Origin: Actinomycetota bacterium | Lineage (GTDB): Bacteria; Actinomycetota; Thermoleophilia; BMS3ABIN01 | NCBI GenBank assembly: GCA_023489275.1 | Contig: JAMDDD010000009.1 | Location: forward strand, 436-64,435 | DNA length: 64,000 bases | Direction: 5' to 3' | Shown here: one piece after another, positions 3,266-64,000 of the stretch | Layout: each line of letters opens with the position of its first letter | Numbering within the stretch: position 1 is the first letter of the stretch | Made by a program: the position numbers and the translations under genes | The notes under the pieces: generated by a model | The model's input: the letters and a program-made list of their open reading frames with translations, nothing else | Databases searched by the model: none | What the model was told of the DNA's origin: nothing

Positions 3266-4696
<1,431 letters not shown>

Positions 4697-4817
4697 AAAA
4701 GCAGATGGTGGATCAGCAAAGGGATGACAGGTTTGCCCAAGACATTTGCATGATCAGTAACTTTGAACTTTGAACTTGGAACGAGTCACGGCAAAAAACT
4801 AAAAAAGTAAAATCGCA

Positions 4818-5870
4818 ATGTCAAAAACAGAGTATAACGTCAAAACCATAGAGTGGCAGAGCGATGAGGTCGTGATGATTGACCAGCGGGTGCTGCCGCT
4901 TGATGAGAAGTACATTCATCACAAAACCTGGCAGGAAGTAGGGGATTCGATCAAGACGATGGTCATCCGCGGCGCGCCGGCGATCGGGGTCGCCACCGCC
5001 ATGGGCATGGCGCTCGCCGCCATGCAGTCTCCGGCCACGACATATGAAGCGCTGAAGCAGGATCTCGATGCCGCCGCCCAGGGATTGTTCATCACCAGGC
5101 CCACCGCCTATAACCTGGGCTGGGCCCTTCAGGAGCAGGCCAAAATTTATAACGAGCCTGGCGATCCCGACGATATCCGCCGCCGCCTCAAGGAGCGCTC
5201 CCAGGAGATTCTCGACGAGGACATCGCCATGTGCGTTGCCATTGGGGAGCACGGGGCGCCGCTCTTTCCCAAGGGAGCCCGCATCCTCACGCACTGCAAT
5301 GCGGGAGCGCTGGCGACGGCCGGCTACGGAACGGCGCTGGGCGTCATCCGGTCGGTATTCAAGCGGGACCCGAGCATCATGGTTTACGCCGACGAGACGC
5401 GGCCTTTTTTGCAGGGAGCCCGGCTGACCGCCTGGGAGCTGCAGCAGGAAGGCATCCCCTGCTGCCTGATTACGGACAATATGTCCGGCTACTTTTTTAA
5501 GAAGGGTGAAATCGACGCTGTCGTGGTCGGCTCGGACCGCATCGCTGCCAACGGGGATGTCGCCAACAAGATCGGGACTTACACCGTCTCGGTGCTGGCA
5601 AAAGCGCATGGCGCGCCTTTCTACGTTGCGGCGCCGACATCAACAGTGGACCTGAGCATTCCCCACGGCGATCACATTCCCATTGAAGAGCGAGATCCGG
5701 CAGAGGTTACCCACTTCCGGGAAGTGCAGTGCGCCCCCAGCGGCATCGACGTCTGCAATCCCGCTTTTGACGTGACCCCTCACGAGAACGTCAGCGCCAT
5801 TATCACTGAGGCCGGCGTACACCTGGAACCCTATTCGGAAAGCCTGGCCGCCGCGAAGAAAGGCAAATAA
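4818..5870 (+). CDS. mtnA: S-methyl-5-thioribose-1-phosphate isomerase (eIF-2B-like family)
   Basis: 350 aa, conserved GAPAIG and CNAGALAT and DRIAANGD motifs. Confidence 0.85.
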   Translation: MSKTEYNVKTIEWQSDEVVMIDQRVLPLDEKYIHHKTWQEVGDSIKTMVIRGAPAIGVATAMGMALAAMQSPATTYEALKQDLDAAAQGLFITRPTAYNLGWALQEQAKIYNEPGDPDDIRRRLKERSQEILDEDIAMCVAIGEHGAPLFPKGARILTHCNAGALATAGYGTALGVIRSVFKRDPSIMVYADETRPFLQGARLTAWELQQEGIPCCLITDNMSGYFFKKGEIDAVVVGSDRIAANGDVANKIGTYTVSVLAKAHGAPFYVAAPTSTVDLSIPHGDHIPIEERDPAEVTHFREVQCAPSGIDVCNPAFDVTPHENVSAIITEAGVHLEPYSESLAAAKKGK

Positions 5871-29578: not shown

Positions 29579-29936
29579 GGGGGCGACCTGGTTTCGACGG
29601 GGTCGATCTGGACGGGAGCAGCAAGCCGAGCTGCCGGCGGGCTCGTTAAACAGCCGGAAAACCTAAAGTAAACGCAGACAATAATCTCGCGTTAGCCGCT
29701 TAATTTAAGCGGCTCGTCGCCCCCGGTTCGTCCGTGACCGGGACCAGCGGCGTCAGATAGCGGACTACGCCACCGCGGCCGCCTCTCGCCGTAGTGCGCG
29801 AAGCCTTAGGGAGGCTGGCGAACCGGATCCGGTCTTCGCGGAGCCGGCGCGCGAGATTTAAAAGCGAAGACTAAGCTTGTAGCGGCTCCCCTTCGGGTGG
29901 CTTCGGACGCGGGTTCGATTCCCGCCGCCTCCACCA
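29579..29936 (+). ncRNA. ssrA: transfer-messenger RNA (tmRNA); predicted tag peptide ADNNLALAA (resume codon GCA at 29684, stop TAA 29701-29703)
   Basis: 5' end GGGGGCGACCTGGTTTCGACGGGG and 3' end GGACGCGGGTTCGATTCCCGCCGCCTCCACCA (tRNA-Ala-like acceptor/T-arm plus CCA); internal ORF ending LALAA-stop. Confidence 0.9.
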
Positions 29937-55021: not shown

Positions 55022-56113
55022 CTACTTCGACTTTGGCGCCGCTTTGCCGGCGATGAACTCCTCAGTCATGTTGCGGGCAATGTCGTCCGGATGCTGGATT
55101 GGCGGCGATTTCATGAAGTACGATGAGGGGCCCTCAAGCGTGCCGGAGATGCCGCGGTCCAGCGCCAGCTTGGCGCAGCGGACGGCGTCGATGACGATAC
55201 CGGCCGAGTTGGGTGAGTCGACGACCTCCAGCTTCAGCTCAATGTTGAGCGGGACATCGCCAAAGGAGCGGCCTTCCAGCCGGATGTAAGCCCATTTGCG
55301 GTCCTGCAGCCAGGCAACGTGATCGCTGGGACCGATGTGGACGTTGTCAGCGCCGATATCAAAGTCAAGCAGCGAGGTGACGGCGTTGGTCTTGGAAATC
55401 TTCTTGCTTTCGAGCCGTTCGCGCTCGAGCATGTTAAGAAAGTCGCTGTTGCCGCCCACGTTCAGCTGGCTGGTGCGCTCCAGCCGGACGCCGCGATCCT
55501 GCATGAGGCTGGCGAGAATGCGGTGAACGATCGTGGCTCCCACCTGGGATTTGATATCATCTCCGATAATTGGTAGTCCTTTTTCCTTAAAGCGCTGCTG
55601 CCAGTAGTCCTCCCGGCCGATAAAGACGGGGATGCAGTTGACCATGGCGCATCCCGCCGCCAGGATCTGCTCGGTATACCACTTGGTCGCTTCCTCGCTG
55701 CCGACGGGCAGATAGCTGACGACCACATCGGTTTGCGTTTCCTTGAGAATGCCGACGATGTCATCGGTCTTGCCGGGAGCCTTTTTGACAACCTGGGACA
55801 GGTATTTGCCGATGCCGTCGTGCGTCATTCCCCGCCCAACCTTGATGCCGGTGGCGGGCACGTCGGTGAATTTAACGGTGTTGTTGGGATGAGCAAAGAT
55901 GGCCTCCGACAGGTCCTTGCCGACCTTTCCCTGAACCACGTCAAAAGCAGCGACGAACTTGATGTTCTTGATGTGATAGCCGCCCAGATTGACGTGCATC
56001 AGGCCGGGCACCGTGTCGCCGGCCTTTGCTTTCTTGTAGTATTCGACCCCCTGGACGAAGGAAGAGGCGCAGTTTCCCACGCCGATAATCGCGACTCTGA
56101 CGTCATTGCTCAA
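55022..56113 (-). CDS. ino1: myo-inositol-3-phosphate synthase (bacterial/archaeal type)
   Basis: N-terminus [17 protein letters not shown]; ~364 aa; TTG start 8 nt after GGAGGTG (track ORF extends further upstream into the neighbouring gene). Confidence 0.85.
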
Positions 56114-56184
56114 GGCACTGACACCTCCGGATAGTAAACAAGAATTTGTAGATTCCGCCGGCGGCGGGCTGCCCCGCCGGTATT

Positions 56185-56886
56185 TCACTCTTTGTCGCCA
56201 GCCGGAGCTTCCGCTTCGAGGAACCGGCGCCGCACGTGCAGGATCCGCTGCAGCACCGTCACGGCTGTAAGCACCGCTAGAATATACACCACCAGCGGCA
56301 GCACGCCAAATTTCTGCAGCAGCAGGCCGGCAATGAGGAGCACCAGCCGCTCCGGCCGGGTCATCAGCCCTACCTTGCAGTCCAGCCCCAGGGCCTCGGC
56401 GCGGGCGCGGGTGTAGCTGACGAGGAAAGAACCGATCATGGTGGCAAAGGTGGCGCCGACAACCCACAGGTTGCCACCTCTGGCGTAAACCAGGGCGATC
56501 GATGTGAGCACTGCGCCTTCGCCGACGCGGTCAAAGGTCGAATCAAGAAAGGCGCCCATCGGCGTAACGCGCTCGGACAACCGCGCCAAAGCGCCGTCCA
56601 GCATATCGAAGATGCTGCCGATGGCAAAGACAATGGCCGCCGTCACGTAACGACCGGTCCACACCAGCGGCGCCACACCCAGGGTCAGGATAAGCCCGAA
56701 GACGGTGAGCAGATTTGGCGAGATGCTCGTGCGGCCGATGATGGCGGTAACGGGGCTAAACAGCCGCCGCGCCTCGGTGCTGTAATAGTACCTCAGCTTT
56801 TCGATGTAAGGCATGTCCCTCAAAAAAGTCTCTCCGGCCGCCGCCCGCACCTCCGCCGGCCCGGCCGCCTCGGCAGATTCTAACAC
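56185..56886 (-). CDS. CDP-alcohol phosphatidyltransferase (phosphatidylinositol-phosphate synthase-like)
   Basis: Family motif D-x2-DG-x2-AR...G-x3-D-x3-D ([32 protein letters not shown]); start may be ATG 56814. Confidence 0.8.
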
Positions 56887-57841: not shown

Positions 57842-58839
57842 TGCGGATCCTTCCCACCCGGCGGCTGGCCGGCGTCACGAAGGGATCTGCCCGTATAGCG
57901 CAGGAAGACATCGTCCAGCGTGGGCTCGGAAAGCGTGACCGTCTTAATGGTCATGCCGTTCTGGTCCAGCAACCGCAGGATTCGGGGCAGCGCCGTGACG
58001 CCGTCATCGACGTAAAGGCGCAGGTGATCGGATTCGGCGCTCACCTCTCGCACGAAATCCTGCTCTTGCAGGAGCCTCATTGCCCCCTCGGGCCCGGCGC
58101 CGTCGTCCTGGAGGCTGACGACAACGCTGTCGGCGGCAATTTGCTGTTTTAGCTGCCTGGAAGTGCCCTCGGCCACCAGCTGGCCGTGGTCCATGATCGC
58201 GAGGCGGTTGGAGAGGGCGTCCGCTTCTTCCAGGTAGTGTGTGGTCAGAAAAATTGTCGTGCCGGCCTCGCGCAGCTTGCTGATCTGCACCCACAGGTTG
58301 GCCCGGTTCTGCGGATCGAGGCCGGTAGTGGGCTCGTCCAGGAAGAGCACGTCCGGCCGGTGCATGATGCCCAGGGCGATATCCAGGCGCCGCCGCTGCC
58401 CGCCCGAATATGATTGAACCCTTCTTGACGCAAACTCCGCCAGGTCGAGCACTTCAATCAATTCGTCGGCCCGCCGCTCCGCTTCCCGCCGGCCCATACC
58501 GTAAAGCTCTCCCTGCAGGAGCAGGTCTTCCCGGCCGGTGGCGAGCCGGTCGCTGCCGCCGAGCTGGCTGACATAACCGATGCGCTGGCGCACTTGATGC
58601 GGGCTCTTGTGAACGTCAAATCCCGAGACCACCGCCCGGCCGCTTTCAATCGGCAGCAGCGTCGAGAGCATGCGGAGCGTGGTTGTCTTGCCGGCGCCGT
58701 TGGGACCCAGGAAGCCGAAGATCTCACCCGGCCAGATCTCCATGTCGATGCCGCGCACCGCCTCGATCTTTTCCTTGCGGGTCCGAAAAGTCTTGGTGAG
58801 GTCATGCGCCTCCAGCACCGGTTGTCCATTTGTGTTCAT
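57838..58839 (-). CDS. ABC transporter ATP-binding protein (DrrA-like, with C-terminal accessory domain)
   Basis: Walker A GPNGAGKTT, signature YSGGQRRRLDIALG, Walker B LFLDEPTTGLD. Confidence 0.85.
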   Translation of the reverse strand: MNTNGQPVLEAHDLTKTFRTRKEKIEAVRGIDMEIWPGEIFGFLGPNGAGKTTTLRMLSTLLPIESGRAVVSGFDVHKSPHQVRQRIGYVSQLGGSDRLATGREDLLLQGELYGMGRREAERRADELIEVLDLAEFASRRVQSYSGGQRRRLDIALGIMHRPDVLFLDEPTTGLDPQNRANLWVQISKLREAGTTIFLTTHYLEEADALSNRLAIMDHGQLVAEGTSRQLKQQIAADSVVVSLQDDGAGPEGAMRLLQEQDFVREVSAESDHLRLYVDDGVTALPRILRLLDQNGMTIKTVTLSEPTLDDVFLRYTGRSLRDAGQPPGGKDPQ

Positions 58840-58918
58840 TGCTTTAAAATAGTTAACATAAATTAAGAATCACAAAAATTAAATATTTTGATTATTAAAA
58901 TAATTAAATTTTTAACTA

Positions 58919-59398
58919 GTGTCAAGCCGGGATAAACCGTTTCAAAATTTGCGCATCGGACCGGCGGCCAGCACGCGATCGATCCTGTTCCATCAGGCTG
59001 TCGCGGATAAACTCGGCCTTAATCCTACCGATCATAAAATCCTGCTTTTTCTGTTCGACCGCCCCCGGGCCGCAGGCGAGCTGGCCCATCTTACCGGTCT
59101 TACCACTGGCGCGATGACGGCGGTAATTGACCGGCTGGAAAAAGCAGGCTATGTCCGCCGGGTTCACGACATGGAAGACCGGCGCCGCATCTACGTGGAG
59201 ATAATCCCTGAAAACGCAGCCAGAATTGTGGACCTGTTCCGGCCCCTGAGCCGGGCGATGGCGAAGCTGGAGTCAGGTTACTCGCCGGCGGAGCTGGATC
59301 TGATCCACGATTACCTCGAGCGCGCCGGCGAGGTGCTGTACCGGGAGACGCAAAGGCTGAGCCGGGTCAAGCCAGAGCCGCCGCTAAAATCCAAATAA
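58919..59398 (+). CDS. MarR-family transcriptional regulator
   Basis: wHTH core GELAHLTGLTTGAMTAVIDRLEKAGYVRR; divergent from the ABC operon across an AT-rich 80-bp spacer; GTG start. Confidence 0.8.
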   Translation: MSSRDKPFQNLRIGPAASTRSILFHQAVADKLGLNPTDHKILLFLFDRPRAAGELAHLTGLTTGAMTAVIDRLEKAGYVRRVHDMEDRRRIYVEIIPENAARIVDLFRPLSRAMAKLESGYSPAELDLIHDYLERAGEVLYRETQRLSRVKPEPPLKSK

Positions 59399-59498
59399 CT
59401 TTCTAATTTCCAGCATTTGCAAACTTGCATTCCTTGACAATTATATATAAATAAATAATTATGAGTTTATGTAATTTAGAGAACCCTGTTGCTCTGGC

Positions 59499-59858
59499 AT
59501 GGCGGCATTGACGAAAAATAACATCAAACGTGACAGGATAGAGCTTCTTAAGTTAATGGGCCATCCCTTGAGGATCCAGCTTCTGGAGAAGCTGATGGCG
59601 GGCGTCACCTGCGTCAGTGACTTTGAGGGTTTTTTTGACACGAGCCAGCCAAACATATCCCAGCATCTGGGGCTGCTCCGGCGGGCCGGCCTGATTGACT
59701 ATTACATGGATGGGCGGCTCAGGTGCTACTACCTGGTTGATCCGATCGTCCCGGATCTGCTGAAGCTGCTCAGGAAGGAATATGAAGAGGACCTGGAGCC
59801 GCCTGCCTGCTGCCCGGTTACCAAGACAGGAAAGTATCCTGGTGACCGGCAGCACTAA
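59499..59858 (+). CDS. ArsR/SmtB-family metalloregulator-like repressor
   Basis: HTH region LRIQLLEKLMAGVTCVSDF...ISQHLGLLRRAGLI; C-terminal Cys pair PPACCP. Confidence 0.75.
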   Translation: MAALTKNNIKRDRIELLKLMGHPLRIQLLEKLMAGVTCVSDFEGFFDTSQPNISQHLGLLRRAGLIDYYMDGRLRCYYLVDPIVPDLLKLLRKEYEEDLEPPACCPVTKTGKYPGDRQH

Positions 59859-59905
59859 GATTTAACAAATTTCAATTTCGTCACGAATGAAACTAGGGAG
59901 GGAAA

Positions 59906-60337
59906 ATGAGCGCAACAGAAAAAACCGGCAAATCCGTATCCATCATGTGTTTCCACGACGAAATGTGCCAGGTGTTCAACGCCTTGATGACGGCGCAAAG
60001 CCTGCTCCGGTCCGGCTCAAAGGTGGCCATCTTTTTTGGGTCGCGGGGGATTAACGCCGTTCACAGGGACAAGATCGACAAACTGGTGTGCCTGCCGGAC
60101 CAGCCCCAGGAAGTGCAGGACGCGGTGGTGAAAAAGATGGAAGAGATGGATCTGCCGGAGATCAGCCTGCTGATGGAGTCGCTCTACTATGAGGGGGCAA
60201 AGCTTCTGGCCTGTCCTCTCAACCTGAACGTCTTCGGCATGAGCAAGGACGACCTTGTGCTGGGCGTCACGGTGGCCGACCCCGCCACCTATTACAAGGA
60301 AGTAATGCTGGCAGCCGACATGAACCTGGCTTTTTGA
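59906..60337 (+). CDS. DsrE/DsrF-like family protein
   Basis: 143 aa; DsrE-like Rossmann-type pattern with Cys near N-terminus (SIMCFHDEMC) and LLACPLN; tentative. Confidence 0.45.
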   Translation: MSATEKTGKSVSIMCFHDEMCQVFNALMTAQSLLRSGSKVAIFFGSRGINAVHRDKIDKLVCLPDQPQEVQDAVVKKMEEMDLPEISLLMESLYYEGAKLLACPLNLNVFGMSKDDLVLGVTVADPATYYKEVMLAADMNLAF

Positions 60338-60380
60338 CCTGCTCAAACGTAAGCGATGGTAAGAAGAAAGGATTTGGCAG

Positions 60381-62012
60381 ATGAGAGTTGAGGAAGAAAG
60401 TTACAAGGGCGTAGAGGAAGGGATGGAAATCCCGCTTCAGGAACTGGGATTACCCGCTCCCGACAAGGGGCTGCTGATCGTTTTCTGGAAGGGGCAGTGA
60501 CAGGGCTGCCGGCGGGAGGCTCCCGCTGTAAAGCGCCTGTATGAGCGCTTCTCTTCCAAAGGATTCTCCGCCATTTACATTGGTCCTTATGAAACAGGGG
60601 AAGCCTGCCAGCAATGGAAGGAAGAATACCAGCTGCCATTTGAAGTAGTGCCTGACAAGGAAGGCTCGATTTTCAAGCAGCTTAGCAACGGCTGGGTTCC
60701 CTATTCGATTTTGGTGGGGCCGGACGGCAAGGTAATTTTGTGGGAAAGCGAGTTTCAGGAGTCGGGCTTCTCTGCCGCGGTGGAAAAAATCTACGAAGAA
60801 CCGGCCCAAACAGAGGCGCCGGAACCGGTGCTCCAGGCGGCGCCGCGGCGAGGGCCGGCATATGGCGCCAATATCCTTATCCTCGGCGGCGGCGCCGGCG
60901 GACTGGTGGCCGCGTATCAACTGCGGAAGCGGCTTTCCGGCAGGGACCGAATCGTCGTGGTCGACCGCGAGCCCAACCACCTGTTCCAGTCTTCGCTGCT
61001 CTGGCGGGCGGTGGGGATGCGCCAGACGGAGCAGATTCAGCGGCCGCTGTCCGATCTGACCGGCACGGGAGTCGAGTTTGTCAACGAGCCCGTGGTGCAG
61101 ATAGATCCGCAGCGCAAGCAGGTGCGAACCTCGGCGCGGGAGCTCGATTATGATTTCCTCATCGTCGCCCTCGGCGCCGAGCTGGCGCCGCAAGAAGTGC
61201 TTGGGTTCGAGGAGATGGCCTTCAATCTCTACGATCTGGACGGCACGGCCAAGATCAACGCCGCCCTAAATGAATTTTCCGGCGGCGAAGTGGCGGTGCT
61301 TGTCACCGACATGCCCTTCAAATGCCCGGCGGCGCCGTATGAAGCGGCGTTGCTGGTCGATTCATTTCTGCGCAAAAAGGGCCTGCGCGACAGATCGGAG
61401 GTTCACCTCTTTACGCCGGAGCACCAGCCGATGCCAATCGCCGGTCCGAAGCTGGGCGAAGCGATAACGAACGTGCTTGGCAAGCGCGGCATCCAGTATC
61501 ATCCCCTGTTTACTTTCGAATGGATCAGCCCCGGTGACCAAACCATCATTCCCTCCACCGGCGACCCGCACAAGGTCGATCTGCTTCTTGCCATACCGCC
61601 CCACCGGGCTCCGGAAGTCATCCAGTACTCCGGCCTCATCGGTTCTTCCGGATGGATGCATGTCGATTCGCATACATTGAAAACCGAGTACGATGGCGTG
61701 TATGCGATAGGCGACGTCAATAATATCCGGCTCGCCAACGGCAAGAATCTGCCGATGGCCGGAGTTTTTGCCCATTACGAGGCCAAGGTCGCCGCTGAGC
61801 AGATCGTCGCGGAAATAAACGGGGAGCCGTCAAATGCTTCATTCGACGGTAAGGGTTTTTGCTGGCTGGAGCTGGGCGGCGGCAAAGCCGGATTCGCCGC
61901 CGGCAACTTTTACGCCGAGCCTGAGCCCGCCGTTCGCCTTTACCCGCCCATGCGCTCCTGGCACTGGGGCAAGGTCGCCTTTGAGAAGTGGTGGCTGCGT
62001 CACTGGTTCTAA
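60381..62012 (+). CDS. candidate selenoprotein: TlpA-like redoxin (UxxC, Sec at in-frame TGA 60498-60500) fused to sulfide:quinone-oxidoreductase-like FAD flavoprotein
   Basis: Thioredoxin-fold motif LLIVFWKGQ-TGA-QGCRREAPAVKRLY aligns with FWASWCGPCRAEMP; same frame continues into the FAD GG-fold (ILILGGGAGGLVAAY), the SQR-type CPAAPYE motif and GKGFCWLE Cys. Confidence 0.55.
60510..60528 (+). other. candidate bacterial SECIS hairpin 10 nt downstream of the in-frame UGA
   Basis: CGGCGGG-AGGCU-CCCGCUG: 7-bp stem (one G-U) with 5-nt GG-containing apical loop. Confidence 0.4.
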
Positions 62013-62087
62013 TTGATGCTCCGGCCTGCTCTTGCTAGGATTTTATGCAGGCTTTTTGAAAGCTCACGGCGGGGACGGGCCGCATGC

Positions 62088-62116
62088 TTGACTATATCCG
62101 TTAATCCGGATATGTT
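62088..62116 (+). promoter_or_regulatory. candidate sigma70-like promoter with embedded inverted repeat operator upstream of fdx-hgcAB
   Basis: TTGACT (62088-62093) - 17 nt - TATGTT (62111-62116); spacer contains ATATCCG-N6-CGGATAT. Confidence 0.4.
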
Positions 62117-62230
62117 ATTTGATATCTGTGGGAGGTGTTAGCGGTCCCCGGTTTTTTCCGGCCATGAATCCCGCCCGCGCCGGCATGTCAGGGGACGCTG
62201 CCTCAGGTCAAATAATTTAAGGAGGAGACA

Positions 62231-62629
62231 ATGGAGCCGTTCCGTTATCACGTTTACGTCTGTGTCCAGGAAAAGCCGGACCCCGCCGCGCCCAGCTGCT
62301 CCAATAACGGCGGTAAAGAAGTGCTCGATGCCCTGCGGGAAGAACTGGGAAAGGCAGGCCTGGGCGACGAGGTCCAGGTGACTACCGCCGGCTCGCTGGG
62401 GCTCTGCACCCGCGGCCCGAACATGGTTGTGTATCCTGAAGGCACGTGGTATTCGGGGGTGCAGGTGTCGGATGTTCCAGAAATCGTCAGCGAGCATTTT
62501 GTCAAGGGGAGGCCGCTGACAAGGCTTGCCAATCAGGACGCCGCCGCCTTAAAAGCGGAGATCCTGGAAAACAAGCGAAAAATACTCGCGGCGATGAAGG
62601 CGGCCCGGGAAGCGCAGTCGCAAAAGTAA
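62231..62629 (+). CDS. thioredoxin-like [2Fe-2S] ferredoxin
   Basis: Cys pattern VYVCVQ...C-x4-C...LGLCTRGPNMVVYPEGTWY; GGAGG RBS. Confidence 0.7.
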   Translation: MEPFRYHVYVCVQEKPDPAAPSCSNNGGKEVLDALREELGKAGLGDEVQVTTAGSLGLCTRGPNMVVYPEGTWYSGVQVSDVPEIVSEHFVKGRPLTRLANQDAAALKAEILENKRKILAAMKAAREAQSQK

Positions 62630-62661
62630 ATAGCGCCCCCCGCATACATCCATTTTGTACC

Positions 62662-63762
62662 ATGATTCAGGATAGTAATCAAATTTGCTGCGATGTTGAC
62701 GGCGCCCTTCCCCTGACCGAAACCAGCCCGGGCCGTGAGCCGCCGCAGATAGCGGGGCAGGTTGGCTTTGAAATCAGCCGCCGGGAGCGATGGGAGCATT
62801 TCCGGTGCCGCCTCGGCAGCTTCCGGGACAGGTATTCGGTAGCGCCCGGCCTGTATGCATTTGGCAACCCCGGTCCCCAGGGGGACGTTCTTGTGAGCGC
62901 CAGCTACAAGCTCAGCTTCGATACACTCAGAAAGGAACTGGAAGGGCTGGACTGCTGGATCCTCGTCCTGGACACCAGGGGCATCAACGTCTGGTGCGCC
63001 GCCGGTAAGGGCACTTTTGGCACCGCCGAGCTGGTCCGGCGGATCGGTGCCACGCGCCTGGGAGAAGTTGTTTTTCACCGCCGCCTGCTGCTGCCGCAGC
63101 TGGCCGCACCCGGGGTAAATGCCGCTGAAGTTCGCCGGCAAACAGAATTTAAGATCTCGTTCGGACCAGTGCGGGCGGCGGACATCCCGGCGTACATGAA
63201 GGCTGGTTACCGAAAAACGCCGGCGATGAGCACTGTCTCCTTCGGCCTCAGGGACCGCCTGGTATTGACGCCGATGGAGCTAAACCCCGCCTTAAAAAAG
63301 TTTCCCTGGTTCGCAGCCATGGCTATACTCCTCTTTGGCCTCCAGCGGCGGGGCATCATGTTTACTGATATATGGAACGGCGGTGGCATGGCGTTCCTGA
63401 TCCTGGGCCTGACCGCGGTGGCCTCCGGGGCTTTCCTGACGCCGGTTCTGCTTCCGTTCCTCCCCTGCCGCTCCTTTGCCGTGAAGGGATGGATCGCCGG
63501 GCTGGCGGTGGTATTTTTGACATCGCTGATTCCAATCGTATCCGCGGCAATGAACAGCCGGCTGCTGCTGTTTGCGGCATACCTTCTTTTTCCGGTAATC
63601 AGCTCCTACCTGGCGCTTCAGTTTACCGGGTCGACGACCTTCACGGGCATGTCCGGCGTCCGAAAAGAACTGAAGATCACCTTGCCGGTATACGCGGCTG
63701 CCGCGGCTGTTTCATTGTTCCTGCTAATTATGTTCAAGTTGACCGAATGGGGGAAGGGATGA
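62662..63762 (+). CDS. hgcA: mercury methylation corrinoid protein HgcA
   Basis: Diagnostic cap-helix motif GINVWCAAGKGTFGT, corrinoid-binding domain followed by 5 TM helices; ATG 62662 (track ORF has a spurious upstream extension). Confidence 0.85.
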   Translation: MIQDSNQICCDVDGALPLTETSPGREPPQIAGQVGFEISRRERWEHFRCRLGSFRDRYSVAPGLYAFGNPGPQGDVLVSASYKLSFDTLRKELEGLDCWILVLDTRGINVWCAAGKGTFGTAELVRRIGATRLGEVVFHRRLLLPQLAAPGVNAAEVRRQTEFKISFGPVRAADIPAYMKAGYRKTPAMSTVSFGLRDRLVLTPMELNPALKKFPWFAAMAILLFGLQRRGIMFTDIWNGGGMAFLILGLTAVASGAFLTPVLLPFLPCRSFAVKGWIAGLAVVFLTSLIPIVSAAMNSRLLLFAAYLLFPVISSYLALQFTGSTTFTGMSGVRKELKITLPVYAAAAAVSLFLLIMFKLTEWGKG

Positions 63763-64000
63763 AATACCTGGCCGACATTGTCACGCTGGAATACAATGCC
63801 GAACTCTGTACCGGCTGCCGCCGCTGCGTTGAGGTCTGTCCGCATCAGGTATTTGTTATAGAGAACAAACGCGCCGCGATCACGGACCGCGACCGCTGCA
63901 TGGAATGCGGCGCCTGCGCCCTCAATTGCGAGGCCGGCGCCATCATGGTTGACGCCGGAGTCGGCTGCGCCACCGCCATCATCAACAGCATCATCGGTGG
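63759..64000 (+). CDS. hgcB: mercury methylation ferredoxin HgcB (partial, runs off window)
   Basis: Two CxxCxxCxxxCP [4Fe-4S] motifs (CTGCRRCVEVCP, CMECGACALNC); ATGA overlap with hgcA stop. Confidence 0.8.
   Translation, partial: MKYLADIVTLEYNAELCTGCRRCVEVCPHQVFVIENKRAAITDRDRCMECGACALNCEAGAIMVDAGVGCATAIINSIIG

What the first reader, a model, noticed from the sequence alone, without database searches (positions are those of the whole stretch)
62088..64000. hgcAB preceded by a co-oriented [2Fe-2S] ferredoxin, a palindromic operator and upstream ArsR/DsrE/Sec-redoxin-SQR genes
HgcA (NVWCAAGK cap helix plus 5 TM) and HgcB (two 4Fe-4S motifs; truncated by the window edge) are clear. They appear to form an operon with a thioredoxin-like 2Fe-2S ferredoxin, a possible dedicated electron donor. 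The operon is driven by a promoter whose -35/-10 spacer holds ATATCCG-N6-CGGATAT, a repressor-type operator. An ArsR-family regulator lies 2.3 kb upstream. The neighbouring sulfur/selenium redox genes suggest a regulated thiol-handling context for methylation.
Basis: partly seen in the sequence, partly recalled or inferred. Interest (0 to 1): 0.6.

Follow-up and report, generated by a model that had tools for sequence, protein, structure and literature searches.

The report
ArsR-type operator controlling ferredoxin-hgcAB operon
The mercury-methylation genes hgcAB here sit behind a promoter with a conserved repressor-binding palindrome that most likely belongs to an arsenic-sensing ArsR encoded beyond the window, while the ferredoxin in front of them is a local passenger and not a general partner of hgcAB.

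Summary

- **Operator is real.** The module TTGAyT-NN-ATCCG-N6-CGGAT-ATATTG recurs in seven distinct related Thermoleophilia/Actinomycetes-type contigs. It always lies in the promoter of arsR, acr3-hgcAB, hgcA or fdx-hgcAB.
- **Independent test.** A profile built only from sites in other contigs hits the window once, at 62087-62120 (E=7e-07).
- **Different regulator.** The co-occurring regulator is a canonical ELCVCDL-type ArsR. In the sister contigs it lies about 1.1 kb downstream of hgcB, beyond the window end, with its own copy of the site.
- **Upstream ArsR belongs elsewhere.** The ArsR at 59499 is part of a separate ArsR-DsrE-selenoprotein-SQR cassette. That cassette also occurs without hgcAB and lacks the palindrome.
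- **Ferredoxin is not a conserved partner.** It appears in 1 of 80 species-level hgcAB loci. None of 80 ferredoxin-homologue loci carries hgcAB, and one relative keeps only a 3' remnant of fdx next to intact hgcAB.

ArsR control of hgcAB is already known; the operator sequence and this gene arrangement are new detail.

The parts
62088..62093 (+). -35 box TTGACT
   Evidence: Promoter scan. TTG is invariant or nearly so across the 10 aligned sites.
62094..62113 (.). 20-bp palindromic operator ATATCCG-TTAATC-CGGATAT (core ATCCG-N6-CGGAT), predicted ArsR-dimer site
   Evidence: Recurs in 7 distinct related contigs. Leave-out profile gives 25.2 bits, E=7e-07.
62111..62116 (+). -10 box TATGTT, overlapping the right half-site
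   Evidence: The homologous sites have TATATT or TAGATT 6 nt before leaderless arsR start codons.
62117..62230 (+). Roughly 108-nt leader, including an 18-codon uORF at 62164-62220 and the Shine-Dalgarno sequence AAGGAGG
   Evidence: Sequence. No Rfam match. No significant fold. The uORF stays in frame in L001 and L008.
62231..62629 (+). fdx: 132-aa thioredoxin-like [2Fe-2S]-type ferredoxin with Cys11/Cys23/Ser55/Cys59
62662..63762 (+). hgcA, corrinoid protein (366 aa)
   Evidence: NCBIfam NF040863, 391.9 bits against cutoff 275. NVWCAAGK at residue 109.
63759..64000 (+). hgcB, 2[4Fe-4S] ferredoxin. The first 80 codons are present; the gene is cut by the window end.
   Evidence: NF040864, 114.1 bits against cutoff 99. 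Two CX2CX2CX3C motifs. The start overlaps the hgcA stop (ATGA).
59499..59858 (+). ArsR/SmtB-family regulator of the neighbouring sulfur module. It is not the predicted binder of the 62094 palindrome.
   Evidence: Conserved with DsrE/SQR in L177 and L179 without hgcAB. Has its own AT-rich promoter, TTGACA at 59434.
59906..60337 (+). DsrE/DrsE_2-like protein
   Evidence: Pfam PF13686, 50.7 bits.
60381..62012 (+). Selenocysteine (UGA 60498-60500, motif Q-U-Q-G-C) AhpC/TSA-redoxin fused to an SQR-like flavoprotein
   Evidence: With U read as C: AhpC-TSA 50.2 bits and Pyr_redox_2 76 bits. Hairpin after the UGA. The split into a 39/40-aa ORF plus a long ORF is conserved in L001, L177 and L179.

Best explanation
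Window 62088-64000 is the start of an ArsR-repressed transcription unit.

- A sigma-70-type promoter (TTGACT, 17 nt, TATGTT) is overlapped by a 20-bp palindromic operator, ATATCCG-N6-CGGATAT.
- A dimer of a canonical arsenite-sensing ArsR (ELCVCDL motif) is predicted to sit on this site and block RNA polymerase. In the near-identical sister contigs this gene lies about 1.1 kb downstream of hgcB, behind its own copy of the operator.
- Binding of As(III), or another thiophilic metalloid, would release the repressor. That would allow transcription of a roughly 108-nt leader, fdx, hgcA and hgcB.
- The ferredoxin is a resident gene of this chromosomal neighbourhood in the lineage. In this branch it ended up between the ars-type promoter and hgcAB. 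It is co-transcribed here but is not a general component of the methylation system.
- The upstream ArsR-DsrE-Sec-redoxin-SQR genes are a separate sulfide/persulfide-handling cassette with their own regulator.

Shown: the gene identities, the conservation and distribution of the site, its co-occurrence with the CVC-type ArsR, and the synteny statistics. Inferred: which protein binds the site, the effector, co-transcription, and the presence of the CVC-type arsR downstream of this particular window.
For: 1. Recurrence of the operator.
- The exact core ATCCG-N6-CGGAT occurs 16 times in 1.62 Mb of fetched DNA, against about 1.5 expected by chance.
- Fourteen of these lie directly 3' of TTGAyT in promoters of arsR, acr3-hgcAB, hgcA or fdx-hgcAB.
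- The sites are window 62096; L001 5861 and 8934; L008 10924 (L008 7430 is a further promoter site with one mismatch to the core); L009 and L176 at two sites each; L170/L171; L174; L175.

2. Leave-out test.
- A profile built from 7 sites in other contigs, none of them upstream of fdx, hits the 64-kb window only at 62087-62120 (25.2 bits, E=7e-07; next best E=1).
- The profile finds nothing in 0.51 Mb of hgcAB-less fdx and sulfur-module loci.

3. Two copies per locus, one in front of the regulator gene, which is the usual signature of an autoregulated repressor.
- L001 8934 lies 11 nt before the arsR GTG.
- L009 has one site before arsR and one before acr3-hgcAB.
- These arsR mRNAs are predicted to be leaderless, with 6 nt between the -10 box and the start codon. 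That supports the promoter call.

4. Nature of the regulator.
- It is ArsR/SmtB family (98.3 bits against cutoff 55) and carries GELCVCDL.
- In L009 and L176 it heads arsR-acr3-hgcAB.

5. Published operator frame.
- The 20-bp ATC-N10-GAT frame matches published operators of the ArsR-family regulators SahR and SamR (PMC4239095).
- It also matches TATCGTA-N4-TACGATA sites upstream of 4-Cys arsR-hgcAB in Spirochaetota and other phyla.

6. Co-transcription.
- The fdx-hgcA gap is 32 nt and folds to only -3.2 kcal/mol.
- No promoter-like site lies between fdx and hgcA.

7. Literature.
- arsR and acr3 next to hgcAB, and As-responsive ArsR control of hgcAB in strain ND132, are published (PMC7438021, PMC10349881, bioRxiv 10.1101/2022.10.17.512643).
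Against: - The CVC-type arsR is not in the window. tblastn finds only the distant ArsR at 59499. Its presence downstream is inferred from L001 and L008, which are 94-99% identical at the protein level.
- No binding, transcript or effector data exist.
- In L170 and L175 the same promoter/operator lies between fdx and hgcA, so the fdx-inclusive unit is specific to the window/L001/L008 branch.
- No convincing terminator follows the SQR gene, so read-through from upstream cannot be excluded.
- The hairpin also meets a loose terminator pattern.
Confidence: 0.65

Rival explanations
1. One reading: the palindrome is the operator of the ArsR-family protein encoded 2.3 kb upstream (59499-59858). That protein would couple hgcAB to the neighbouring sulfur/selenium redox genes.
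For: It is the only ArsR-family gene in the window. ArsR-family proteins bind palindromes of this size. It has Cys38 in the alpha-3 position and a C-terminal Cys-Cys pair.
Against: - Its own promoter (TTGACA at 59434 followed by an AT-rich stretch) has no ATCCG/CGGAT site.
- Its orthologues travel with DsrE and Sec-redoxin-SQR in L177 and L179/L180, where there is no hgcAB and no palindrome.
- The palindrome is present in L009, L174, L176, L170 and L175, which lack this ArsR and the sulfur module.
Confidence: 0.1
2. The ferredoxin is a dedicated, co-evolved electron donor for HgcB/HgcA.
For: - It lies directly upstream of and co-oriented with hgcA in two arrangements: the window type, and L170, where fdx is 85% identical.
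- It is probably co-transcribed here.
- It is a thioredoxin-like [2Fe-2S] fold with an unusual Cys3Ser ligand set, which could tune its redox potential.
Against: - Only 1 of 80 species-level hgcAB loci has it within 8 kb, and that one is the same lineage.
- None of 80 metagenomic fdx-homologue loci has hgcAB.
- Close homologues (66-81% identity) stand alone in L004, L006, L168, L172, L173 and L177.
- L175 keeps intact hgcAB next to an 80-nt 3' remnant of fdx.
- L174 has arsR-hgcAB at the position next to CDP-OH_P_transf that fdx occupies in L004, with no fdx in the 5-kb contig.
- In L004 the ferredoxin sits next to Ino1 and the CDP-alcohol phosphatidyltransferase, genes that also lie upstream in the window. 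It therefore looks like a resident gene of the lineage.
Confidence: 0.12
3. The hairpin is the intrinsic terminator of the upstream SQR gene, or simply a chance palindrome.
For: The terminator-like scan lists it: an 8-bp stem with 3 G-C pairs and a TTATTTGATA tail. As RNA it folds at -10.3 kcal/mol, z=-3.0. Perfect 7-N(4-8)-7 repeats are common in the window, 54 in total.
Against: - The same sequence precedes arsR in L009, L176 and L174, where the upstream neighbour is on the opposite strand. No + strand gene ends there.
- The half-site sequence is conserved, not just the pairing.
- It always abuts a -35 box.
- The stem is weak and AT-rich.
- Recurrence is far above chance.
Confidence: 0.04

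Closest known systems
arsR-hgcAB of Pseudodesulfovibrio mercurii ND132 and other methylators (ArsR2; Goni-Urriza 2020; McDaniel 2020, PMC7438021; Gionfriddo 2022/2023, bioRxiv 10.1101/2022.10.17.512643)
   Same: hgcAB is under an ArsR/SmtB-family repressor and linked to arsenic-resistance genes. Palindromes in the same TATC-N10-GATA frame precede 4-Cys arsR-hgcAB in the Spirochaetota-type loci examined here.
   Different: - The regulator here is the canonical alpha-3 CVC type, not the 4-Cys CxC...CxC type.
- Its gene is not upstream or co-transcribed. It lies downstream of hgcB behind its own operator in L001 and L008.
- A ferredoxin gene sits between the promoter and hgcA.
- None of the held hgcAB papers that were read or searched defines an operator.
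Canonical ars operon control (ArsR of E. coli R773 and chromosome; arsR-acr3 operons)
   Same: An autoregulated winged-helix dimer with an ELCVCDL metalloid site, and an operator overlapping the promoter. L009 and L176 are literally arsR-acr3 followed by hgcAB.
   Different: The controlled genes in the window are fdx-hgcAB, not efflux or reductase genes. The half-site ATCCG/CGGAT differs from the E. coli ArsR site as I recall it (not tested here).
SahR/SamR operators (ArsR family; PMC4239095)
   Same: A 20-24-bp palindrome with the common frame ATC-N10-GAT.
   Different: Those regulators sense SAH or SAM and control methionine genes in Proteobacteria. Here the inner bases and the regulator's Cys motif point to a metalloid sensor.
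Thioredoxin-like [2Fe-2S] ferredoxins (Aquifex aeolicus Fd4, 1F37/1M2A; Clostridium pasteurianum 2Fe Fd; HydB/HndC N-terminal domains)
   Same: The fold-level sequence match covers residues 7-100 and aligns with ligands Cys9, Cys22 and Cys59 of Fd4.
   Different: - Ser naturally occupies the position of the Cys55 ligand in 120 of 120 family members. This mimics the engineered C55S variant 1M2B.
- The family has an extra conserved C-terminal helix of about 30 residues.
- Scores are below the Pfam and NCBIfam thresholds.

Membership tests
HgcA (mercury methylation corrinoid protein) | Score at or above the NCBIfam NF040863 equivalog cutoff | tested here: met
   391.9 bits against cutoff 275.
HgcA (mercury methylation corrinoid protein) | Cap-helix motif N(V/I)WCA(A/G)GK and a C-terminal multi-pass membrane domain | tested here: met
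   NVWCAAGK at residues 109-116. Hydrophobic 19-mers at 246-264, 278-296, 301-319 and 339-357, plus a weaker one near 215.
HgcB (2[4Fe-4S] ferredoxin) | Score at or above the NF040864 cutoff, two CX2CX2CX3C motifs, and a position directly after hgcA | tested here: met
   114.1 bits against cutoff 99 on the 80 residues present. Motifs at residues 17 and 47. ATGA overlap with hgcA.
HgcB (2[4Fe-4S] ferredoxin) | C-terminal Cys pair | not testable with these tools
   The window ends at residue 80. The 96%-identical orthologue in L001 ends ...SGSCC.
Thioredoxin-like [2Fe-2S] ferredoxin (PF01257 / NF041612) | Score above the curated family threshold | tested here: not met
   PF01257 17.1 bits against 24.8. 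NF041612 69.1 bits against 150. Homology to solved members is clear, E about 1e-18.
Thioredoxin-like [2Fe-2S] ferredoxin (PF01257 / NF041612) | Four Cys cluster ligands (Fd4 Cys9, 22, 55, 59) | tested here: not met
   Cys11, Cys23 and Cys59 are present. Ser55 replaces the third ligand in 120 of 120 homologues. Cluster binding was not tested.
ArsR/SmtB repressor-operator pair | Palindromic site overlapping the -35/-10 region of the controlled promoter | tested here: met
ArsR/SmtB repressor-operator pair | Cognate regulator gene in the locus, preceded by the same site (autoregulation) | tested here: inconclusive
   Met in L001, L008, L009, L174 and L176. The window ends before the expected position, and no CVC-type arsR lies within the 64 kb.
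ArsR/SmtB repressor-operator pair | Protein-DNA binding and metalloid-induced release | not testable with these tools
   Needs EMSA or a reporter assay.
Operon fdx-hgcA-hgcB | Same strand, short gaps, no internal promoter or terminator | tested here: met
   32-nt gap folding at -3.2 kcal/mol. No consensus hit between the genes.
Operon fdx-hgcA-hgcB | Gene order conserved across hgcAB-positive genomes | tested here: not met
   1 of 80 GTDB species representatives. A variant order occurs in L170 and a deletion in L175.
Bacterial selenoprotein (UxxC redoxin) | In-frame UGA at the redox-motif Cys position, with the reading frame conserved on both sides in relatives | tested here: met
   Q-U-Q-G-C motif. 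The AhpC/TSA domain scores 50.2 bits only when read through. The split into a 39/40-aa ORF plus a long ORF recurs in L001, L002, L177, L179 and L180.
Bacterial selenoprotein (UxxC redoxin) | SECIS hairpin and Sec machinery (selA/B/D, tRNA-Sec) | tested here: inconclusive
   An 8-bp G+C hairpin lies 9 nt after the UGA, but the fold z-score is only -1.6. There is no tRNA-Sec in the window. The rest of the genome was not available.
BigR/SqrR-type persulfide sensor (for the ArsR at 59499) | Score at or above the NF040642 cutoff | tested here: not met
   37.9 bits against cutoff 155. Only the genomic association with DsrE/SQR supports a sulfur-sensing role.

The most novel reading that the evidence does not exclude
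In this Thermoleophilia branch an arsenite-responsive promoter has captured a naturally Cys3Ser-ligated thioredoxin-like ferredoxin, so that it is made together with HgcA and HgcB. That ferredoxin would then act as the physiological low-potential electron feed into HgcB and the HgcA corrinoid, a donor that has not been identified for any methylator. More broadly, the TATC-N10-GATA palindrome family would be the shared cis-element through which ArsR-family regulators make mercury methylation metalloid-inducible across phyla.
Probability: 0.12. Interest if true: 0.7.

Novelty: new variant of a known kind. Interest (0 to 1): 0.42.

Why it matters
How hgcAB is regulated, and what it is natively for, remain open questions. 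The arsenic link so far rests on gene adjacency and on one model organism.

A concrete, conserved operator sequence turns that link into something directly testable for uncultured Thermoleophilia-type methylators, and by extension for other phyla. It could be tested by EMSA, by reporter fusions, or by motif-based regulon searches. It also allows prediction of when these organisms express hgcAB in arsenic-bearing anoxic soils and waters.

The work also corrects two tempting but unsupported inferences:
- The adjacent ferredoxin is not a general partner of hgcAB.
- The neighbouring sulfur/selenium genes are not part of the methylation context.

Tried and rejected
- **Riboswitch or other known RNA in the leader.** An Rfam scan of 58800-64000 at E≤1 gave only noise. 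The leader folds no better than shuffles (z=+1.9).
- **Other copies of the palindrome in the window.** None was found.
- **MarR (58919) as the binder.** MarR homologues occur only in L001 and L008, not in the other palindrome-bearing contigs.
- **Terminator after the SQR gene.** Folds of the window, L001 and L008 are not significant, so insulation from upstream transcription is unproven.
- **BigR/SqrR identity of the upstream ArsR.** The NCBIfam score is far below cutoff, and the PDB hits are generic ArsR-family proteins.
- **Metagenome scan with the ferredoxin alignment.** It returned only homologues at or below 66% identity, useful for the association statistic (0 of 80) but not for operator conservation.
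- **Operator of strain ND132 itself.** No collection holding that genome was still searchable, and the paper gives no site.
- **Structure prediction.** Not used, because sequence alignment to solved structures already answered the ligand question.
Full report
**Observation**

The window end carries, on the + strand, the features below.

- A promoter-like site: TTGACT at 62088-62093, a 17-nt spacer, and TATGTT at 62111-62116.
- A perfect 7-6-7 palindrome, ATATCCG-TTAATC-CGGATAT, at 62094-62113.
- A leader of roughly 108 nt.
- A 132-aa ferredoxin gene at 62231-62629.
- hgcA at 62662-63762.
- The first 80 codons of hgcB, from 63759 to the window edge.

HgcA and HgcB both pass the NCBIfam equivalog cutoffs (391.9 against 275; 114.1 against 99). 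HgcA has NVWCAAGK at residue 109 and a hydrophobic C-terminal domain. HgcB has two CX2CX2CX3C motifs.

Upstream lie four further genes:

- MarR, 58919-59398.
- An ArsR/SmtB-family gene, 59499-59858.
- A DsrE-like gene, 59906-60337.
- An ORF at 60381-62012. It encodes an AhpC/TSA redoxin fused to an SQR-like flavoprotein only if UGA 60498-60500, inside Q-U-Q-G-C, is read as selenocysteine.

**Is the ferredoxin a partner of hgcAB?**

I fetched 80 hgcAB loci, one genome per GTDB species, with 8-kb flanks, and searched them with the window proteins.

- Only L008 carries the ferredoxin or any of the MarR/DsrE/SQR genes and the 59499 ArsR orthologue. L008 is a Thermoleophilia MAG with 94% HgcA identity.
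- The next-closest loci, L009 (67% identity) and L010 (62%), do not.

The ferredoxin itself belongs to a dense, highly conserved family: 120 listed homologues at 66-94% identity.

- None of 80 metagenomic loci encoding homologues has hgcA or hgcB nearby.
- Closer homologues stand without hgcAB in L004, L006, L168, L172, L173 and L177.
- In L004 the ferredoxin sits beside inositol-1-phosphate synthase and a CDP-alcohol phosphatidyltransferase. The same genes lie at window 55022-56886, so it is a resident of this chromosomal neighbourhood.

Two further arrangements are informative.

- L170/L171 (ferredoxin 85% identical) read acr3-fdx-[promoter/palindrome]-hgcA.
- L175 reads acr3, then an 80-nt 3' remnant of fdx, then [promoter/palindrome]-hgcA-hgcB. 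Here fdx was lost while hgcAB was kept.
- L174 places arsR-hgcAB directly next to the CDP-alcohol phosphatidyltransferase with no ferredoxin.

Co-transcription in the window lineage remains likely. The fdx-hgcA gap is 32 nt, it folds to only -3.2 kcal/mol, and there is no internal promoter-like site.

**The palindrome**

On its own a 7-6-7 repeat is unremarkable: the window holds 54 perfect 7-N(4-8)-7 repeats. Its context is what makes it significant.

- Scanning all fetched DNA (1.62 Mb) for the core ATCCG-N6-CGGAT gave 16 exact hits, against roughly 1.5 expected by chance.
- Fourteen of them sit immediately 3' of a TTGAyT box.
- They fall in seven distinct contigs of the same HgcA clade, always in the promoter of arsR, acr3-hgcAB, hgcA or fdx-hgcAB.
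- The -10 hexamer (TATATT, TAGATT or TATGTT) overlaps the right half-site.
- Where the module precedes arsR, the start codon follows the -10 box by 6 nt. That is the expected distance for a leaderless actinobacterial mRNA, and it independently supports the promoter assignment.

A sequence profile built from seven sites in other contigs, none upstream of fdx, was then tested.

- It finds exactly one significant match in the 64-kb window, at 62087-62120 (25.2 bits, E=7e-07; next best E=1).
- It recovers the untrained L008 fdx site (E=2e-05).
- It finds nothing in 0.51 Mb of hgcAB-less ferredoxin and sulfur-module loci.

The terminator reading is rejected. In L009, L176 and L174 the site lies between divergent genes. 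What is conserved is the half-site sequence.

**Which regulator?**

Loci with the site usually have two copies, one of them directly before a 114-115-aa ArsR carrying GELCVCDL.

- L001 8961-9308 and L008 10951-11295, both about 1.1 kb downstream of hgcB after a peptidase gene.
- L174 2092-2436.
- L009 6453-6800 and the corresponding gene in L176.

In L009 and L176 this ArsR heads arsR-acr3-hgcA-hgcB. This is the classical pattern of an autoregulated repressor with a small regulon.

The window contains no such gene. It stops about 1.2 kb short of where L001 and L008 have it.

The ArsR at 59499 is only 33% identical over 70 residues to this regulator. It has a different, AT-rich promoter. Its orthologues are linked to DsrE and the Sec-redoxin-SQR in L177 and L179/L180, where neither hgcAB nor the palindrome occurs. 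I therefore assign it to the sulfur cassette, and assign the 62094 operator to the CVC-type ArsR.

**Wider pattern**

- In Spirochaetota, Leptospirales and other loci, a 4-Cys (CxC...CxC) ArsR lies immediately upstream of hgcA. This is the motif described for ND132 ArsR2. These genes are preceded by TTGACT plus TATCGTA-N4-TACGATA.
- L010 has TATCAA-N6-TTGATA twice, between a divergent arsR and an MFS-permease-USP-hgcAB string.
- All share the 20-bp TATC-N10-GATA frame. This matches the ATC-N10-GAT frame published for the ArsR-family regulators SahR and SamR (PMC4239095).
- The genes between promoter and hgcA vary: none, arsR, acr3, transporters or fdx. This again marks the ferredoxin as one of several passengers.

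**Comparison with what is known**

The following are already published: hgcA-positive Thermoleophilia, arsR/acr3/arsC/arsM next to hgcAB, co-transcription of arsR with hgcAB, and As-responsive ArsR control in ND132 (PMC7438021, PMC10349881, bioRxiv 10.1101/2022.10.17.512643).

In the held library I found no paper that defines an operator for hgcAB, or that notes a [2Fe-2S] ferredoxin beside it.

The kind of system is therefore known. The new elements are:

- the explicit cis-element;
- the use of a canonical CVC-type ArsR encoded apart from the operon;
- the ferredoxin-containing arrangement.

**Verdict**

| Aspect | Result |
|---|---|
| Observation | Confirmed |
| Interpretation | Partly supported: operator and operon yes; regulator identity, dedicated ferredoxin and sulfur/selenium context no |
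| Best explanation | ArsR-type, probably arsenite-relieved, repression of a lineage-specific fdx-hgcAB unit |
| Confidence | About 0.65 for the full statement; higher for "conserved repressor operator in the promoter" |
| Interest | Moderate |

Noticed in passing
window 62231-62629 (residue 55), with homologues P0001-P0120: The ferredoxin family has Ser at the position of the Aquifex Fd4 Cys55 cluster ligand in 120 of 120 homologues (motif G-S-x-G-x-C-x-x-G-P). The window protein has only three Cys. The best-scoring standalone-ferredoxin PDB match is the engineered C55S variant 1M2B. This may be a natural Cys3Ser [2Fe-2S] ferredoxin, and it has a conserved extra C-terminal helix of about 30 residues.
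   Followed up: partly
window 60381-62012 (UGA 60498-60500): A selenocysteine-containing UxxC AhpC/TSA redoxin is fused to an SQR-like flavoprotein. Gene callers split it into a 39/40-aa ORF plus a 456-479-aa ORF in L001, L002, L177, L179 and L180. Hundreds of homologues have similar truncated lengths, so the fusion selenoprotein looks widespread and systematically mis-annotated.
   Followed up: partly
window 59499-62012; L179 5147-8440; L177 1310-3347: A conserved ArsR-DsrE-(ArsR-HTH-rhodanese)-Sec-redoxin-SQR cassette occurs independently of hgcAB. It is probably a regulated sulfide/persulfide-handling module. L008 carries an extra TauE/SafE-like membrane gene (4090-5202) inside it.
   Followed up: partly
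window 62164-62220: An 18-codon uORF lies in the fdx leader and ends at a TAA just before the fdx Shine-Dalgarno sequence. An in-frame equivalent of 19 codons exists in L001 and L008 despite a 3-nt length difference. The peptide sequence is poorly conserved and the significance is unknown.
   Followed up: no
L001 9301-9552: An 83-aa ORF with a hydrophobic segment and two CxxC pairs overlaps the 3' end of the CVC-type arsR by 8 nt. It is probably co-transcribed with the regulator. No family hit is recorded.
   Followed up: no
L175 100-210 compared with L170 1020-1110: An 80-nt remnant of the 3' end of fdx is retained between acr3 and the hgcA promoter. This documents a recent deletion of the ferredoxin gene in an hgcAB-positive relative.
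   Followed up: yes
L031, L036, L042, L049, L053, L055, L066 (about 20-40 nt upstream of arsR, which directly precedes hgcA): TTGACT followed by TATCGTA-N4-TACGATA lies upstream of 4-Cys (ND132 ArsR2-like) arsR-hgcAB in Spirochaetota-type genomes. This is a candidate operator for the widespread hgcAB regulator.
   Followed up: partly
window 29579-29936: tmRNA gene with tag peptide ADNNLALAA.
   Followed up: no
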